Shown here piece after piece: positions 1 through 31,738 of a stretch of DNA of 64,000 nucleotides (its first letter is position 1; every line of letters starts with the position of its first letter). The position numbers and the translations under genes were made by a program. The notes under the pieces were generated by a model that did no database searches, had not been told where the DNA came from, and worked only from the letters and a program-made list of their open reading frames with translations. The DNA is from a virus: IMG/VR virus record IMGVR_UViG_3300036861_000805, positions 1 to 64,000 of that record; one strand, written 5' to 3'.

Positions 1-50
1 GCGCTCATCGGCGGCATGTCCACGACTTCGCCCTTTTTGCTCGCGCTCAT
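1..50 (-). CDS. N-terminus of a gene running off the window (MSASKKGEVVDMPPMSA...); candidate array-associated protein
   Basis: ATG at 50-48 overlaps the TGA of the 47..166 ORF (ATGA); open to window edge. Confidence 0.45.
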   Translation of the reverse strand, partial: MSASKKGEVVDMPPMS

Positions 51-166
51 CCCGAACACCTTTGTCGGTGTAGACAGATGAGAACAGGCTTCCCGCTCTC
101 TGCCTGCGAGACGGTTACGCCTTTCAGCACTTGCAGAATGTTGTCGGGAATCTCGGTGGTAGTCAT
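47..166 (-). CDS. 39-aa hypothetical protein directly downstream of array 1
   Basis: RBS GAAAGGAG then ATG; MTTTEIPDNILQVLKGVTVSQAESGKPVLICLHRQRCSG; translated by hand. Confidence 0.55.
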   Translation of the reverse strand: MTTTEIPDNILQVLKGVTVSQAESGKPVLICLHRQRCSG

Positions 167-176
167 GGGGCTCCTT

Positions 177-872
177 TCGATCGCTCGTACTTCACGGTTG
201 GCTCAACGGCGACGGCTCGCTCTTCCACGACGGTTGGCTCCAGATCCACGGCTCGCTCGATACTGACGGTGTTCTCAACGGCGACGGCTCGCTCCGTAGA
301 TACGGATGTCTCCCGTAGTACGGCTCGCTCTAGTTCCACGGGTGGCGCCAAGTGGGCGGCTCGCTTCCACGTCTCGGTTTGCTCAGCATCGACGGCTCGC
401 TCGGTCCTGACGGGTTGACTCTCCTTCCCCGCCTCGCTTCGCTGCTTCGGGTGACGCCAGCTTCTCGGCCTCGCTCATTCATCCCGGGCATCTCTCTGCA
501 CGCGGCTCGCTCCCAACCTTCGGTTTGCTCAACATCGACGGCTCGCTCCCAGTTCTCGGATGGCTCTGGGAGGACGGCTCGCTCGGGCGCTACGGGTGAC
601 GCGCTGATCGCGGCTCGCTCATGTACCTCGGGTGACTCCCGAAGTACGGCTCGCTCGTCATCGCCGGGTATCTCCAGCGCGTCGGCTCGCTCGCGCCGGA
701 CGGTTGTCACGCTCGATACGGCTCGCTCTTCGGAAGAGGGTGACTCGCGCAGCGCGGCTCGCTCACTCCAGACGGTTGTCACGTTTGCGACGGCTCGCTC
801 AGGGTTGATGGTGGTCTCGCTGGCTTCGACTCGCTCACCCGCCACGGGCGTCTCAATTCTCACGACTAGCGG
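177..872 (-). ncRNA. TIGR-like dual-repeat guide RNA array 1, 19 units of 36 nt
   Basis: + strand block CGGCTCGCTC (some variant) at 213,249,285,321,357,393,430,466,503,539,575,611,647,683,719,755,791,827 with degenerate ends at 177 and 863; second block CGGDTGDCTC-like midway; 8-nt variable segments between. Confidence 0.88.
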
Positions 873-1039
873 CGCCGCTCGACTGCATCTTGGAGCGCGC
901 CCAGCGCGTTCCCCAGATCGTTCGAGATAGGTTCCGGTTCGGAGGCGAGCATGGCTTCCAGAACGTCGCAGACGAGATGCTTCACTTTCCACCAGCGGTA
1001 GAGCTGGAAGCGGCGCAGGCGAAGCACCCAGTCGTTCAT
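866..1039 (-). CDS. hypothetical protein between arrays (MNDWVLRLRR...)
   Basis: ATG at 1039 overlaps stop of 1036..1317. Confidence 0.6.
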   Translation of the reverse strand: MNDWVLRLRRFQLYRWWKVKHLVCDVLEAMLASEPEPISNDLGNALGALQDAVERRR

Positions 1040-1317
1040 TCGGCGGAATCTGCGTAGTCGGCGGAGATGCCTGGCGCGGATGCAGGCTCGGCCTCCCGGA
1101 TCAGCGCCTGCTGGGAAACCATCACTGTGAAGCTGCGAGTACAAATATCCGCGCTCTCGAGAAGTACGCGCTCTTCGACGCGCACTGTGCGCGAAGACAT
1201 GAAGGTGCCTTCCGCCGGAAGCGTGTCGACGGCCGCGGAGAAGGCCTGGTCGCGGTCATCGAAGCGCTCGCCGGAGTCCTTTCCCGGCAAGATGACTTCC
1301 CAGTACGTGCGTCTCAT
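1036..1317 (-). CDS. hypothetical protein between arrays
   Basis: 93-aa ORF, RBS-like GAAAGGAAAAG upstream. Confidence 0.7.
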   Translation of the reverse strand: MRRTYWEVILPGKDSGERFDDRDQAFSAAVDTLPAEGTFMSSRTVRVEERVLLESADICTRSFTVMVSQQALIREAEPASAPGISADYADSAE

Positions 1318-2426
1318 CGCTTTTCCTTTCGCTTCGGGTCCGGGCGCACGGAGCGCTCAGGGGAGGGAATGTGGATGCGCATATGCTTGCCCTTCGGCAG
1401 TGGATGCACTTTCCCGCAGAGCTTGCATATCGTCCCCGCCGGCGCAGTGGCAAGGCAAGTGCTGCGGCGAGTCTTGGTTCGCTCCAGCGATACGGATGGC
1501 TCAGCAGGCTCGGCTCGCTCACCGAGTGCGGGTTTCTCTCCGTCTTCGGCTCGCTCGTGCGCGACGGGTGGCTCGGCGTAGGTGGCTCGCTCTTCCATGG
1601 CGGGTGGCTCTCGACCCGCGGCTTGCTCGCTTCGGACGGGTGCCTCCAGTCGCACGGCTCGCTCATTCGCGACGGATGGCTCGGCACCGGCGGCTCGCTC
1701 GCCAGGAGTGGGTGACTCTCCTTTATCGGCTCGCTCCCGTCGGCCAGGTGACTTCGCTGGTACGGCTCGCTCTCTCGTGTCGGATGCCTCACCATCGACG
1801 GCTCGCTCACTTGTCGCGGATGACTCAGCACAGACGGCTCGCTTCCGCTGGACGGGTGACTCCGCACTGACGGCTTGCTCCATAGATACGGGTGACTCCC
1901 GACGTCCGGCTCGCTCGCATGTCGCGGGTGACTCCTTTCCTTCGGCGCGCTCACAGCCTGCGGGTGACTCACTATCAGCGGCTCGCTCCTCACAGTCGGA
2001 TGACTCCTCTACTACGGCTCGCTCTGGACTCACGGATTGCTCTCGCATCCCGGCTCGCTCGGCGACCCCGGGTGATTTCTCAGCGGCGGCTTGCTCCTTA
2101 GTCTCGGACGACTCAACTTCGACGGCTCGCTCGTGCTGGAGGGATGGCTCCTGCTTCTCAACTCGCTCTTCGGCTTCGGATGCCTCGCGAAAAACGGCTC
2201 GCTCTGCTTCAACGGGTGGCTTCCTCGAGGTGGCTCGCTTGCAGGCGACGGATGACTCTCTCGGCTCGGCTCGCTCCCAATGGACGGATGACTCCGCGTC
2301 GTCGGCTTGGCTGGCCCTAGCCCCGCCCGGGGAGGCAGGGGCTAGGCCAGCTTTCTCGGGCGCGGGTGCGGCAGGTGGAGTGGGCTCCGCGCCCGATTCT
2401 TCGAGCAGATCGTCGAATTCGTTCAC
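1314..2426 (-). CDS. possible 370-aa ORF reading through array 2 (E-R-A 12-aa repeats, C-terminal CxxCxxxH)
   Basis: GTG at 2426 overlaps upstream TGA; its TGA overlaps ATG at 1317; no internal stop; may be partly a shadow of the RNA array. Confidence 0.4.
   Translation of the reverse strand: MNEFDDLLEESGAEPTPPAAPAPEKAGLAPASPGGARASQADDAESSVHWERAEPRESSVACKRATSRKPPVEAERAVFREASEAEERVEKQEPSLQHERAVEVESSETKEQAAAEKSPGVAERAGMREQSVSPERAVVEESSDCEERAADSESPAGCERAEGKESPATCERAGRRESPVSMEQAVSAESPVQRKRAVCAESSATSERAVDGEASDTRERAVPAKSPGRRERADKGESPTPGERAAGAEPSVANERAVRLEAPVRSEQAAGREPPAMEERATYAEPPVAHERAEDGEKPALGERAEPAEPSVSLERTKTRRSTCLATAPAGTICKLCGKVHPLPKGKHMRIHIPSPERSVRPDPKRKEKR
1475..2312 (-). ncRNA. TIGR-like dual-repeat guide RNA array 2, 23 units of exactly 36 nt
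   Basis: Edge block every 36 nt from 1475 to 2303 with no indel; sense consensus GAGCGAGCCG-N8-GAGTCA(C/T)CCG-N8. Confidence 0.9.
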
Positions 2427-2662
2427 CTGATCTGCCGCAGCTGGAACTTTCCATGCTGGCGCCTGAGCCATCTGATGTGTTCCAGCAGCTCCTTGACTTC
2501 CCGGTTGCGCTGTTCGGCTTCGCCGAGCATGCAGTTGAGCTTGTGCCAGCGCCAGGGTTTGTGGCGCAGCTTTTTCATCACGGGAATGGCTTGCTCGTTC
2601 TCGTGTAGAAGGGCTTGGCAATGTCTGAGCAGTCTGAGGCGTGCCTCTACGAGCTCATCCAC
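2423..2662 (-). CDS. hypothetical protein
   Basis: 79-aa ORF overlapping the RHH gene end. Confidence 0.6.
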   Translation of the reverse strand: MDELVEARLRLLRHCQALLHENEQAIPVMKKLRHKPWRWHKLNCMLGEAEQRNREVKELLEHIRWLRRQHGKFQLRQIR

Positions 2663-2840
2663 GATCGGTCTCGGCCTTGCGCACCCAGGCGTCGATCATG
2701 CTGTTCAGGATTTCCTGCATCGTGCGCCCGTCGTAGGCGAGCGCGACCTTGAGCCGGCGGTGCAGGGAGGCGGGCATGCGGAAGGTGACCTGCTGCAGGG
2801 GCTCGGTAGCGGGGGATTCAGATACCTCGGTATCGGGCAT
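2655..2840 (-). CDS. ribbon-helix-helix DNA-binding protein (ParG/CopG-like)
   Basis: QQVTFRMPASLHRRLKVALAYDGRTMQEILNSMIDAWV fits the RHH pattern; start taken at ATG 2840. Confidence 0.75.
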   Translation of the reverse strand: MPDTEVSESPATEPLQQVTFRMPASLHRRLKVALAYDGRTMQEILNSMIDAWVRKAETDRG

Positions 2841-2900
2841 TCGAGATACCGTAGCAGTTGGGTATTGAGATTTCAAGGTATCTGGGTATGTAGGGTGTTT
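2821..2900. promoter_or_regulatory. 8-bp-phased GGTAT/GATAC repeats, probable RHH operator
   Basis: GGTAT at 2829,2861,2877,2885 and GATACC at 2821,2845, all in one 8-bp phase. Confidence 0.5.
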
Positions 2901-3090
2901 GGTGGAAATATGGTGTGTGTAGAGCGGGAGTTCGCGCTCCCCCTTCAAGCGGCCGGGCTCATCGGGAGCAGCGGAGATCGAGACTGCCCAAGGCAGCATC
3001 GGGGCGCGCCGACGGCGCAGTCCCGGGAGTCGTTATCAGACTGATAACTCCAGGCCTGGAGCGGGCTGGGGAGGATTCCCTCCTAGAGAC

Positions 3091-3119
3091 TTGACAGATG
3101 ATAGGTGAGGCCTCATACT
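3091..3119 (+). promoter_or_regulatory. sigma70-type early promoter
   Basis: TTGACA-17 nt-CATACT. Confidence 0.7.
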
Positions 3120-3276
3120 AGGCAGGCAGCACGGAGCGAGCCGACTACCTTCGGGGACGAGTCCGAGGGATCTTCCCTCACTAGGAACCACCGAGGCGGG
3201 CAGACTCCAGGAACCTTGAAAACTCCAGTTCGCGAGGCTCCCACTAGGGGACTACTCCCCTGGAAACGGAGTCACA

Positions 3277-4071
3277 ATGAGCAAGACTGACGTCCTGACT
3301 GCCGAGCAGGAGACTGCCGAGCAGTCAGCACAGGCCGAGACCGAGCAGAACGAGGCACTCGTCCCGCTCGAACGGGCGATCACCTCCGACATGGAGCGGA
3401 TCGACCGTGCCGAGTCCATGGTCGGACGCCTCTTCACCCGCGTCGGCATTCGTGTAGACAAGGGTGCATTCCGCGTCTCTGACTACGGGCGCGATTGGCG
3501 AGTCTGGGCACGGCCGCTCGTGGGCCGTTCCGACTCGATCCTGTACAAGGTCCGGCAGGCGGGAGCGATCGCCCGAGTCCTCGGATTCGAGGAGACCGCG
3601 AAGCCTGAGGACCTGCCCGGCTACCTGACCCTCGTCCCCTTCTACGCGGTCATCAAGACCGCAAAGACGGACAAGGAGCGAGGGAAGGCGGAGGACAAGA
3701 TCCGCCGCGCGTGGGCGTCGCTCACGAGTGGGGGAACCTTCCCGACACAGGAGCAGGCGCAGGCGAAGGCAGACGCCATCGTCGGGCGGATCCGCCAGGC
3801 ACAGGAGAACGGTGCCGATACCGACCCCGACTCGGAGGAGACTCCGCAGTCTGGTGCGGAGGCTCAGGAGAAGGACTCCCCCGCGGAGATGGTCCGTTTG
3901 GATCCGGCCGCGGTCGAGGCCACTCGAAAGCATCTCGTCCCGTTCTTCAGGCAATGGCACAACGAGTACGGCGTGGAGGAGACCGCTGCCAAGGCGATCA
4001 TGTCTGCCACGCTGCGGCTCGTCGGGTCCGACGGACCCGGCCGGGACCTGATCGAAGCGGCGATCGGCTAA
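3277..4071 (+). CDS. hypothetical protein, first gene of the rightward arm
   Basis: 264-aa ORF, GGAG RBS. Confidence 0.8.
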   Translation: MSKTDVLTAEQETAEQSAQAETEQNEALVPLERAITSDMERIDRAESMVGRLFTRVGIRVDKGAFRVSDYGRDWRVWARPLVGRSDSILYKVRQAGAIARVLGFEETAKPEDLPGYLTLVPFYAVIKTAKTDKERGKAEDKIRRAWASLTSGGTFPTQEQAQAKADAIVGRIRQAQENGADTDPDSEETPQSGAEAQEKDSPAEMVRLDPAAVEATRKHLVPFFRQWHNEYGVEETAAKAIMSATLRLVGSDGPGRDLIEAAIG

Positions 4072-23614: not shown

Positions 23615-24472
23615 ATGCGTGACCGGATGGTGTATCGGGATCGCATCTGCTTCGCATCGAAAGCGACACTCGCGCAAGCCGCTGGCTGCTCGACGCGCTC
23701 GGTGCAACGGGCTTGGCGCGAACTCGAGCTCTCTGGCCGCTGGGAATGTGTCAAATCCCTACCTTCTGGAAAAGCCCCCAAGACCAGGGTGTGGAGAGCC
23801 GTGTCCGAGGAGACCACCGGAATCGTCGAGCGGGCCGTGGTAACCGAGACTACCGGAGCTGTCGAGCGAGCCGCGAGATCCGAGAACACCGGAGCGTACG
23901 AGCGTTATTTTGTCTCCCGACGTACTTCGTACAGAAAACCTCAAACCCCTCGGCCTTCTGATCTCAGGATCAGCGCTAGCGAAGGACCACGGCCGAGGCG
24001 CGCGAGCGCGCCGACCATCCGCTGCGGTAGGAGGAGAAGACTCGTGGAACGACACCCAGAAAAACTCTCCGAAGGGGTGGTGCGGCGGAATGGCGAGGTA
24101 ACTCCCTGGAATGCTGGAGACGCCGTAGCTGCCACGGTGGACTTCTGCCGCACACGCGGCATACCCCTTGCTCCCTCGATCCGAGCGCGACTGGGGAAGG
24201 CAGCGAAGGCGCTGCTCGAATCAGACTTCCCTCCGAACGTCGTCGTCGCTTCCTGTGTCGTTGCGATCAGGACTGGCTGGTTCGGATCTGTGGAGACGAT
24301 CGCGCAGGAAATGGCTGTAGCTCAGGCGGGGGAGCGGATGACGCGGCAGGCCTATGTTCAGGCGATGCACGAGACATCGAGGGAGATGGAACATTCAGAG
24401 AGCGAAGTGTGGAAAACGCTACGTGAGGAAACGCAAAGACGAGCAGAGAAATCGAAAGGAGCCGAAGCATGA
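23615..24472 (+). CDS. phage replication initiator-like HTH protein
   Basis: CFASKATLAQAAGCSTRSVQRAWRELE; upstream of loader-like gene. Confidence 0.65.
   Translation: MRDRMVYRDRICFASKATLAQAAGCSTRSVQRAWRELELSGRWECVKSLPSGKAPKTRVWRAVSEETTGIVERAVVTETTGAVERAARSENTGAYERYFVSRRTSYRKPQTPRPSDLRISASEGPRPRRASAPTIRCGRRRRLVERHPEKLSEGVVRRNGEVTPWNAGDAVAATVDFCRTRGIPLAPSIRARLGKAAKALLESDFPPNVVVASCVVAIRTGWFGSVETIAQEMAVAQAGERMTRQAYVQAMHETSREMEHSESEVWKTLREETQRRAEKSKGAEA
23792..23904 (+). repeat. three-unit TIGR-like mini-array inside the initiator gene
   Basis: TGGAGAGCCG-N8-GAGACCACCG-N8-GAGCGGGCCG-N8-GAGACTACCG-N8-GAGCGAGCCG-N8-GAGAACACCG-N8-GAGCG. Confidence 0.75.
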
Positions 24473-31517: not shown

Positions 31518-31738
31518 GTGTGTTCCCGCTCGAGTGGCGCTGTGCTTGCGGCGCGAGGGGACGATCGGTCAGCTCCGGCTTCGTGGGAGGAAGCATGGCC
31601 GCTCACCTACGGCGCTGCAAGCAGCGTCGGCGGAGCAAGCGCCCGTACTTCCGGCTCGCTCTAGACGATGTCTGGGAGTGCGCGTGGCTTGAGCGCAAGG
31701 ATGATTGGTTCTCGTTCTCGAAACATGCATTCGCCTGA
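31514..31738 (+). CDS. hypothetical protein
   Basis: ATGA overlap. Confidence 0.55.
   Translation: MSVFPLEWRCACGARGRSVSSGFVGGSMAAHLRRCKQRRRSKRPYFRLALDDVWECAWLERKDDWFSFSKHAFA

What the first reader, a model, noticed from the sequence alone, without database searches (positions are those of the whole stretch)
1475..2312. 23-unit, perfectly phased 36-nt dual-repeat array: TIGR-like guide RNA array in a phage
Seen: 23 units of exactly 36 nt; minus-strand unit is GAGCGAGCCG-N8-GAG(T/C/G)CA(C/T)CCG-N8. Two different conserved blocks alternate, both typically starting GAG and ending CCG, separated by short variable segments of fixed length. Established: TIGR-Tas systems (Faure et al., Science 2025) use arrays of alternating edge and loop repeats with two ~9-nt spacers, processed to 36-nt tigRNAs that guide Nop-domain proteins (related to IS110 and box C/D proteins) to DNA, one spacer per strand. 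Inference: this is a GC-rich actinophage TIGR variant; the functional spacer is probably the 8 variable nt plus one semi-conserved flanking G.
Basis: partly seen in the sequence, partly recalled or inferred. Interest (0 to 1): 0.95.

Follow-up and report, generated by a model that had tools for sequence, protein, structure and literature searches.

The report
Orphan TIGR guide-RNA array in phage
A soil phage carries long repeat arrays built like the guide-RNA arrays of TIGR-Tas systems but has no gene for the Tas protein such guides need, so they must use a protein made elsewhere, act as decoys, or be leftovers.

Summary
Window 2312..1485 (minus strand) is 23 units of exactly 36 nt with no indel, closed by a truncated edge at 1484..1475. 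The same strand holds 19 more units at 872..187, and 2.5 units lie on the plus strand at 23810..23899.

It is a dual-repeat TIGR-type array. The same edge repeat and 10-8-10-8 layout occur in at least 118 IMG/VR stretches. In 87 of those 118 a TasA-like gene sits beside the array, always on the same strand, at a median gap of 33 nt. That protein matches the solved TasR and TasH structures. Spacers show no codon periodicity and carry in-frame stops family-wide.

The twist is that this complete 86.7-kb phage (direct terminal repeats, CheckV 100%) has no detectable Tas, Nop or IS110-type gene. All four other records at least 90% complete that I tested do have one. The edge repeats are as well kept as in Tas-linked arrays.

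Best reading: an orphan TIGR array whose RNAs use a Tas supplied in trans, as guides or as decoys. A relic is the main rival. An earlier follow-up in this scan (e1-6117568) reached the same reading for the sister array of this genome.

The parts
1475..2312 (-). TIGR-type array A1. It has 23 units of 36 nt (edge GAGCGAGCCG, 8-nt spacer A, loop GAG[TCG]CA[CT]CCG, 8-nt spacer B). The first edge (2312..2303) keeps only its 3' half. A closing edge at 1484..1475 keeps only its first 6 nt.
   Evidence: same repeats next to tasA elsewhere
2313..2348 (-). GC-rich hairpin directly upstream of the first unit. It is the only strongly predicted structure in the array transcript.
   Evidence: MFE and centroid both pair 2348..2313; the array as a whole folds less well than its shuffles, z +2.26
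177..872 (-). Arrays A2 and A3 on the same strand. They comprise 11 units (872..477), 2 units each with a 1-nt insertion in a repeat (476..403), 6 units (402..187) and a closing truncated edge (186..177).
23810..23899 (+). Mini-array of 2.5 units inserted in frame into the linker of the replication-initiator-like gene 23615..24472.
   Evidence: gene identity; homologues lack the insert
1314..2621 (-). Open frame of 435 codons that runs through A1 in the GAG-CGA-GCC ('ERA') frame. It is probably not an ordinary gene.
   Evidence: GC3 is 0.58 overall and 0.45-0.59 in its non-repeat flanks, against 0.71-0.83 in real genes. It has no stops: 0 against 3.1 expected in A1 alone (P 0.036) and 0 against 4.2 in all 40 units (P 0.007).
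1036..1317 (-). A 93-aa gene with no known relatives, lying between A1 and A2 where tas sits in many related loci.
   Evidence: GC3 0.74; no Pfam or PHROG family; the only match in the 5.8-billion-protein collection is itself
2423..2999 (-). Two co-oriented genes upstream of A1: a ribbon-helix-helix protein (2999..2655) and a 79-aa protein (2662..2423).
   Evidence: RHH_10 E 1.5e-7; Arc-like repressor PHROG E 0.002

Best explanation
Window 1475-2312 is a dual-repeat TIGR array. It is one of three on the minus strand of the phage's left end (42 units in all), and 2.5 more units sit in the replication-initiator gene.

Shown:
- The architecture is that of a TIGR array.
- Its repeats are homologous at nucleotide level to arrays that directly flank tasA genes in many uncultured soil phages.
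- The sense strand is fixed by that linkage.
- The complete genome lacks any tas gene.

Inferred:
- The array is transcribed leftward, together with the RHH and 79-aa genes upstream and the small genes downstream.
- A TasA dimer made by another element in the same cell (host chromosome, prophage or co-infecting phage) binds the GAG...CCG boxes of edge and loop.
- Host RNases trim the transcript in mid-edge to 36-nt RNAs of the form AGCCG, 8 nt, loop, 8 nt, GAGCG.
- These RNAs then either direct the borrowed, nuclease-free TasA to 8+8-nt sites on the two strands of some other DNA, or simply fill it with useless guides (an RNA decoy).

My odds: TIGR-type array about 0.9; orphan in this genome about 0.85; functional in trans (guide or decoy) about 0.5.
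For: Architecture:
- Units are 10-8-10-8 = 36 nt. Both repeats begin GAG and end CCG. The array opens with a 5'-truncated edge and closes with a 3'-truncated edge. This matches the description in Faure et al. 2025 (passages read).

Family:
- At least 118 IMG/VR stretches have the same pattern. They hold 1573 distinct units, G000's included.
- Spacer positions carry 0.16 bit or less and show no 3-periodicity. Spacer GC is about 0.5 against about 0.64 in the flanks.
- A Tas HMM hits 87 of 118 stretches, on the same strand as the array in 87 of 87, at a median gap of 33 nt.
- The Tas profile matches PDB 9MTY (TasR, 1.4e-21), TasH (1.9e-13) and IS621 (7e-5).
- The last base of edge and loop changes together: 118 loci G/G, 9 A/A, 0 discordant.

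Orphan status:
- No hit in G000 with the Tas HMM at full sensitivity (best E 2.8) or with the A1 profile reading through stops.
- No hit with PF01798 or PF02371.
- hhalign gave at best 3.2% probability over 209 open frames, with a positive control at 100%.
- The Tas next to the most similar array also finds nothing (best E 1.1).
- The same profile found Tas in 7 of 12 other whole records, including 4 of 4 that are at least 90% complete.

Maintenance:
- The edge-exact fraction of 0.74 is at the 49th percentile of 80 Tas-linked arrays.
- A1 has 23 units without an indel.
- The sequence is identical in the contigs of two soil runs.

A source of Tas in trans is plausible. Tas homologues of this clade lie in bacterial assemblies of several soil phyla, some next to arrays.
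Against: - There is no RNA evidence at all, and no promoter-like or terminator-like site on the minus strand.
- No target was found. G000 spacers against G000 give no exact 16-mer, and hits with 1 mismatch or fewer equal the null. Family spacers against 1.1 Mb of related loci equal the null.
- The host is unknown, so no Tas donor is identified.
- Loop interiors are unusually mixed (94th percentile of entropy; the commonest loop makes up 13% of units).
- A2/A3 carries two 1-nt insertions.
- Both of these features also fit decay after loss of tas.
- The nearest array type, in G016, is fused in frame to a tas gene. The 435-codon frame here may therefore be what is left after a deletion.
Confidence: 0.55

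Rival explanations
1. Relic. The phage, or the module it acquired, once had an array-tas-array locus. The tas gene was deleted or replaced by the 93-aa gene, and the arrays are now neutral leftovers.
For: - The genome has no tas.
- The layout array / small gene / array mimics the array / tas / array layout seen in many loci.
- The closest array type, in G016, is fused in frame to tas. Here the same kind of frame ends in a 57-codon tail.
- Loop interiors are mixed (94th percentile).
- A2/A3 has two 1-nt insertions.
Against: - Edge repeats are as exact as in Tas-linked arrays (49th percentile).
- A1 has 23 units in perfect register.
- There are three arrays, plus an insert in a second gene.
- No trace of tas remains between the arrays.
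- Spacer GC of 0.55 is still like the family's and has not drifted to the genome's 0.63.
Confidence: 0.25
2. Translated repeat protein. The 435-codon frame is a real gene for an acidic, disordered protein with a 12-residue repeat (ERAxxxESPxxx), and the nucleotide regularity is a by-product.
For: - The ERA frame has no stop in any of the 40 minus-strand units: 0 against 4.2 expected, P 0.007 by column shuffle.
- The 2.5 plus-strand units are read in that same frame inside a real gene.
- In G016 16 units are open in that frame and run on into tas.
- Arrays inside tas coding sequence are reported in print (preprint 10.64898/2026.09.09.750476, section 5 read).
Against: - Third codon positions of the conserved blocks are as invariant as the first and second.
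- Spacer GC3 is 0.60 and flank GC3 0.45-0.59, against 0.71-0.83 in the phage's genes.
- The two 1-nt insertions break the frame between A2 and A3.
- Family-wide the frame carries 269 stops in 1535 units, and 85 of 118 locus-strands have at least one.
- This frame is simply the least stop-prone of the three.
- No Pfam family matches.
Confidence: 0.07
3. DNA-level binding sites, either iterons for the phage's HTH initiator or a centromere-like array for the RHH/ParG-like protein, rather than RNA.
For: - 2.5 units sit in the linker of the initiator-like gene just after its HTH domain and are followed by an AT-richer stretch. This is where lambda keeps its origin iterons (recalled, from no call).
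- An RHH protein with a weak ParG match is encoded upstream.
Against: - The same repeats are tied to tasA on the same strand in 87 of 87 loci. That fits an RNA, not a duplex site.
- Homologues of the initiator lack the insert: 2 of 2 proteins that include the N-terminus, and 0 of 6 metagenome loci have any paired GAG....CC[GA] boxes.
- No G000 protein recurs near arrays elsewhere.
- No ParB is present.
Confidence: 0.05
4. Cryptic effector. The phage does encode a partner for the array, but one unrelated to the Nop/IS110 fold or too diverged to detect. Candidates are the 93-aa, 79-aa or RHH proteins beside the arrays.
For: - These genes flank the arrays on the same strand.
- The 93-aa protein has no relatives at all, so nothing excludes a new function.
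Against: - The profile used is sensitive enough to reach IS621 in the PDB, yet nothing in G000 approaches significance.
- None of the flanking proteins recurs next to arrays in 118 loci.
- They are far smaller than any Tas.
Confidence: 0.08

Closest known systems
Dual-repeat TIGR arrays of TIGR-Tas systems (Faure et al., Science 2025, PMC12045711; passages and section 6 read), especially TasA loci and the SpTasH array with 8-nt spacers
   Same: - Two alternating 10-nt repeats, two 8-nt spacers and a 36-nt unit.
- Both repeats share their first and last bases (box D-like GAG, box C-like CCG), and these change together in edge and loop.
- The array opens with a 5'-truncated edge and closes with a 3'-truncated edge.
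- Arrays lie up- and downstream of a small gene.
- Identical edge repeats sit next to TasA-like genes in 87 of 118 viral stretches.
   Different: - The complete genome has no tas gene, whereas published surveys started from tas loci.
- The boxes read GAG/CCG rather than the UG/CCA of TasR arrays.
- No terminator-like site follows the array.
- Loop interiors are unusually varied.
TIGR units inside coding sequence (Xu et al. 2026 preprint, 10.64898/2026.09.09.750476; outline and section 5 read)
   Same: Units lie in an open frame without breaking it, in a linker or disordered stretch. This holds for the 435-codon frame here, for the initiator-gene insert here, and for G016, where 16 units run on into tas.
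   Different: The preprint describes units inside tas itself. Here the host genes are not tas.
Orphan CRISPR arrays, viral mini-arrays and RNA anti-CRISPRs (recalled from general knowledge; no paper on them was read here)
   Same: A mobile element carries guide-array repeats without the effector, and could either borrow a resident effector or block it.
   Different: The repeat architecture and the protein family differ. No function was tested here.
Origin iterons inside a phage initiator gene (lambda O/ori; recalled, from no call)
   Same: Short direct repeats lie in the linker after the DNA-binding domain of an initiator-like gene.
   Different: The repeats are those of Tas-linked arrays, and homologous initiators lack them.

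Membership tests
Dual-repeat TIGR array | Two distinct alternating short repeats (8-12 nt) separated by two short spacers (about 8-12 nt), with a unit of about 36 nt | tested here: met
   10-8-10-8 in 23 of 23 units with no indel; definition from passages
Dual-repeat TIGR array | Edge and loop repeats share start and end motifs (box D, box C) that covary between the two repeats | tested here: met
   GAG....CCG is kept in 18 of 23 edges and 18 of 23 loops. The majority last base per locus is 118 G/G, 9 A/A, 0 discordant. The 118 were selected for CCG by my pattern. The six A/A loci that came from the Tas-first search were not.
Dual-repeat TIGR array | Array begins with a 5'-truncated edge and ends with a 3'-truncated edge | tested here: met
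   The first edge keeps only AGCCG. The last keeps only GAGCGA. The same holds at both ends of A2/A3.
Dual-repeat TIGR array | Rho-independent terminator after the array | tested here: not met
   No terminator-like site on the minus strand in 1..3400. The paper says 'typically', so this is a weak criterion.
TIGR-Tas system | A gene for a Nop-domain Tas protein beside the array | tested here: not met
   None anywhere in the complete 86.7-kb genome. The feature is met at homologous arrays in 87 of 118 stretches.
TIGR-Tas system | Array transcribed and processed to 36-nt tigRNAs bound by Tas | not testable with these tools
   No RNA run is listed for this DNA
TIGR-Tas system | Spacers A and B pair with adjacent stretches on opposite strands of a DNA target | tested here: inconclusive
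   No excess of matches in G000 itself or in 1.1 Mb of related loci. 16 nt is too short for database-wide searches.
Protein tandem repeat (12 residues) | Conservation follows codon position, and the frame is kept open in homologous arrays | tested here: not met
   Wobble bases are invariant and spacers lack periodicity. There are 269 stops in 1535 units, and 85 of 118 locus-strands are interrupted.
Origin iterons of an initiator gene | Repeats in the initiator's linker are a conserved feature of that gene family | tested here: not met
   Homologues lack the insert. Binding was not testable.
CRISPR array | One repeat of about 25-36 nt alternating with spacers of similar size | tested here: not met
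   Two different 10-nt repeats and 8-nt spacers. cas genes were not searched for.

The most novel reading that the evidence does not exclude
This may be the first case of a virus that keeps TIGR guide arrays (44.5 units in four places) but no Tas. On this reading the phage lives off an RNA-guided effector encoded by its host, a prophage or a rival phage. It would either re-aim that TasA at DNA of its own choosing or flood it with dummy guides, as an RNA 'anti-TIGR'. The 2.5 units inserted in its own replication-initiator mRNA would tie that gene to the same borrowed protein.
Probability: 0.35. Interest if true: 0.8.

Novelty: new variant of a known kind. Interest (0 to 1): 0.6.

Why it matters
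TIGR-Tas systems were described in 2025, and their natural roles and targets are still unknown (passages read). Both published surveys started from tas genes, so arrays without tas could not appear in them. My three literature searches for orphan, anti-TIGR or Tas-less arrays found nothing on the subject.

A complete phage that keeps well-preserved arrays without the effector suggests that tigRNAs can be traded or used against the effector's owner, as happens with CRISPR arrays. It also gives a concrete pair to test: this array together with a TasA from a locus that has the identical edge repeat.

The comparative set built here may help work on how these arrays grow and what they target. It covers at least 118 viral stretches with strict strand linkage, edge-loop covariation, arrays far from tas, and arrays inside open frames.

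If the array turns out to be a relic, the finding is a modest note on the decay of TIGR loci.

Tried and rejected
Targets:
- G000 spacer pairs were searched against G000 in four arrangements with gaps of 0-2. There was no exact hit, and counts at 1-3 mismatches equalled mismatched-pair nulls.
- 1552 family spacer pairs against 1.1 Mb of array-masked loci gave 0-3 exact hits, against nulls of 0.9-1.4.

Expression:
- No RNA holder is listed.
- Only contigs could be laid on the stretch.

Relatives of the phage:
- No match in the phage collection by DNA or with the initiator protein.
- No relatives in IMG/VR through the 264-aa protein, the RHH protein, the major head protein or the initiator alignment.
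- The head protein is absent from six array-bearing records.

Association with ParB, reported for some TasA loci:
- None in G000.
- One weak hit, below the family cut-off, in 5 records.

Other checks:
- No tyrosine integrase.
- In Rfam, only a hairpin-ribozyme match at E 0.2, far below its gathering score.
- The 93-aa gene has no family and no homologue.
- Of the 106 pattern hits in bacterial genomes, only 9 have a Tas nearby.
- The three I opened were plain 9- or 18-nt tandem repeats, not arrays. I therefore drew no host inference from them.
- The within-spacer shuffle overstated stop depletion, because T is enriched at the first spacer base. I replaced it with a column shuffle (against 59).
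- The tblastx output was noise and was not used.

Not seen:
I could not check whether the IMG/VR loci used here are already in the published tas tables.
Full report
**The observation**

Reading the minus strand in 36-nt steps from window 2312 gives 23 units in perfect register down to 1485. A last, truncated edge follows at 1484..1475.

- Each unit is a 10-nt edge (GAGCGAGCCG), 8 variable nt, a 10-nt loop (mostly GAG[TCG]CA[CT]CCG) and 8 variable nt.
- Edges are exact in 14 of 23 units and differ by one base in 6.
- All 46 spacers differ from one another.
- The exact edge 10-mer occurs 31 times in the window, against 1.16 expected (0 of 100 shuffles reach 31). 29 of the 31 lie in arrays.
- The first edge keeps only its 3' half and the closing edge only its 5' part. 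This is how Faure et al. describe the ends of TIGR arrays (passage read).
- Contigs from two soil-metagenome runs of two studies carry the stretch without a differing letter. One run may be the source, and the other covers it only in pieces.

**More of the same in the genome**

The window is the first 64 kb of an 86,757-bp virus record with 127-bp direct terminal repeats, rated 100% complete.

- On the same strand, downstream of a 93-aa gene, lie 11 more units (872..477), two units that each carry a 1-nt insertion in a repeat (476..403), and six more units (402..187).
- On the plus strand, 2.5 units lie at 23810..23899, inside a 285-codon gene with an N-terminal HTH_36 domain and a replication-initiator PHROG match.

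**Not a protein repeat**

A 435-codon frame (1314..2621) runs through the array, reading GAG-CGA-GCC as Glu-Arg-Ala.

Against a coding origin:
- Across 1573 distinct units from this genome and related loci, the third codon positions of the conserved blocks are as invariant as the others.
- The 16 spacer positions carry 0.16 bit or less, with no three-base rhythm in GC.
- In G000 the spacer GC3 in that frame is 0.60, and the non-repeat flanks of the frame have 0.45-0.59. The phage's real genes have 0.71-0.83.
- The two 1-nt insertions shift the frame between A2 and A3.
- Family-wide the frame holds 269 stops in 1535 units, and 85 of 118 locus-strands have at least one.

One point in favour remains. 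G000's 40 minus-strand units have no stop in that frame, against 4.2 expected (P 0.007, column shuffle). That frame is the least stop-prone of the three. Arrays inside open frames are known. I leave this as unexplained rather than as evidence for a gene.

**What it is**

- Clustering the flanking proteins gave one dominant family of about 280 residues, present in 67 stretches.
- With an HMM of that family, 87 of 118 stretches have a hit at E 1e-5 or better. In all 87 the gene is on the same strand as the array, at a median distance of 33 nt, with units upstream, downstream or both.
- A profile of nine members matches PDB 9MTY at 1.4e-21. This is the TasR model of Faure et al..
- The same profile matches TasH of Salicola phage CGphi29 at 1.9e-13 and the IS621 transposase at 7e-5.
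- Pfam sees only a weak Transposase_20 match and no nuclease domain, so the family is TasA-like.
- Where the edge ends in A instead of G, the loop does too: 118 loci G/G, 9 A/A, none discordant. Six of the nine A/A loci came from a Tas-first search of bacterial genomes.
- This is the edge-loop covariation that the paper takes as the mark of binding by a symmetric dimer (passage read).
- The array RNA is predicted to be less structured than its shuffles (z +2.26). That agrees with the paper's remark that pre-tigRNAs form no long duplexes.

**The twist**

G000 itself has no tas. Every search below found nothing:
- The family HMM with all filters off, against every open frame of 40 codons or more (best E 2.8).
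- The nine-member profile, reading through stops.
- Pfam Nop and Transposase_20.
- hhalign against 209 open frames of 150 codons or more (best probability 3.2%, positive control 100%).
- The Tas that accompanies the most similar array type (best E 1.1).

The method works elsewhere. Of 12 other whole records tested with the same profile, 7 have a Tas. The five without are 28-85% complete. All four that are at least 90% complete have one.

Most of the 31 Tas-less stretches in my set are simply cut off next to the array. In several phages a second array lies 5-15 kb from tas.

G000's arrays are not visibly decayed. The fraction of exact edges (0.74) sits at the 49th percentile of 80 Tas-linked arrays. 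The loop interiors, however, are among the most varied (94th percentile).

**The nearest relative of this array type**

Only two other IMG/VR stretches have a unit with a G000-type loop. One lies in an 84.5-kb record that is 90% complete (G016).

- There, 16 units with ..CACCCG loops are open in the same frame and run straight into a divergent tas (487-codon open frame). A TnpB-like gene lies next to it.
- G016 does not share G000's head protein.
- This suggests that the 435-codon frame in G000 may descend from such an array-tas fusion that lost its tas part. No remnant of tas is detectable.

**The units in the initiator gene**

Two homologous proteins that include the N-terminus, and the open frames of two metagenome loci, have the HTH and the C-terminal domain but lack about 30 codons exactly where G000 has the units. 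None of six homologous loci has paired GAG....CC[GA] boxes.

The mini-array is therefore a lineage-specific insertion into a linker. It is not a conserved protein motif or a conserved set of iterons.

**How it probably works, and what is not known**

By analogy with the Tas-linked arrays, the minus strand is the RNA. Processing in mid-edge would give 36-nt RNAs of the form AGCCG, 8 nt, loop, 8 nt, GAGCG.

With no tas in cis, there are three readings:
- The RNAs are loaded on a TasA made by another element in the cell, and act as guides.
- They are loaded in the same way but act as decoys.
- They are leftovers.

Homologues of this TasA clade lie in bacterial assemblies of several soil phyla, so a donor is conceivable. 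The host of this phage is unknown.

I found no targets. Neither G000's own genome nor 1.1 Mb of related loci is enriched for spacer matches. At 16 nt, wider searches are uninformative, a point the 2026 preprint also makes.

There is no RNA evidence and no recognisable promoter or terminator on the minus strand. The arrays lie in a leftward run of small genes that starts at an RHH gene, next to a divergent control region.

**Novelty**

The array type and its protein partner belong to the published TIGR-Tas family. The loci I collected may already be in the published tas tables, which I could not see.

What I did not find in print is a TIGR array in a complete genome without tas. Three searches of the held library found nothing on this.

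An earlier follow-up in this scan (e1-6117568) reached the same orphan-array reading for the sister array at 177-872 of this genome. I reached mine before seeing it, and the tests above are my own.

Noticed in passing
window 3032-3050 and 3091-3119: A perfect palindrome (TTATCAG-A-CTGATAA) lies in the gap between the leftward RHH/array operon and the rightward genes. It sits next to the only sigma-70-like promoter match in 1..3400 (plus strand). It looks like an operator of a divergent control region.
   Followed up: no
window 187-2312, spacers: Near-duplicate spacers exceed a column-shuffle null: spacer A has 15 pairs within 2 mismatches against 6.3 expected (P 0.0015), and spacer B has 13 against 5.8 (P 0.0055). 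The unit at 330 resembles the unit at 656 in spacer A and the unit at 1916 in spacer B. This suggests growth by duplication and recombination of units.
   Followed up: partly
window 187-2312, GAG-CGA-GCC frame: There is no stop codon in 40 units, against 4.2 expected (P 0.007). The codon composition nevertheless does not look coding. This is unexplained.
   Followed up: partly
L249 5848-8356 (record G016): A 16-unit array is open in frame with a divergent tas gene. It is directly followed, with overlap, by a TnpB-like gene (Cas12f1-like TNB 6.7e-21, OrfB_IS605 2.8e-14). Two RNA-guided protein families thus sit side by side.
   Followed up: partly
L096 1500-1800 (with L045, L057, L095, L116, which share flanking gene clusters): A short array of this family lies in the gap between a large unannotated gene and a gene with a weak portal match. 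No tas was found in the 24-kb record, which is 43% complete.
   Followed up: partly
L227-L241 (bacterial genome contigs): TasA homologues of this clade occur in assemblies labelled Acidobacteriaceae KBS 96, Effusibacillus consociatus, Bryobacteraceae, Gemmatimonadetes and others. Where arrays are present, their edges and loops end in CCA instead of CCG.
   Followed up: partly
L129, L131, L147 (Actinoplanes and Streptomyces contigs): The pattern hits there are plain 9- or 18-nt tandem repeats of the GAGCGAGCC type, not arrays. They are a trap for motif-based array finders.
   Followed up: yes
The hairpin upstream of array A1 (2348..2313) has a similar CTAGCCCCTGCC start. I only looked at the sequences.
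   Followed up: partly
window 3134-3143 (+) and 31652-31661 (-): Two solitary exact copies of the edge 10-mer have no loop-like partner 8 nt downstream at 3134. About one copy is expected by chance.
   Followed up: partly
G000 83943-84017 (-), outside the window: A tRNA-Met gene lies among the small leftward genes between the genome end and the terminase large subunit (81341-82927).
   Followed up: no
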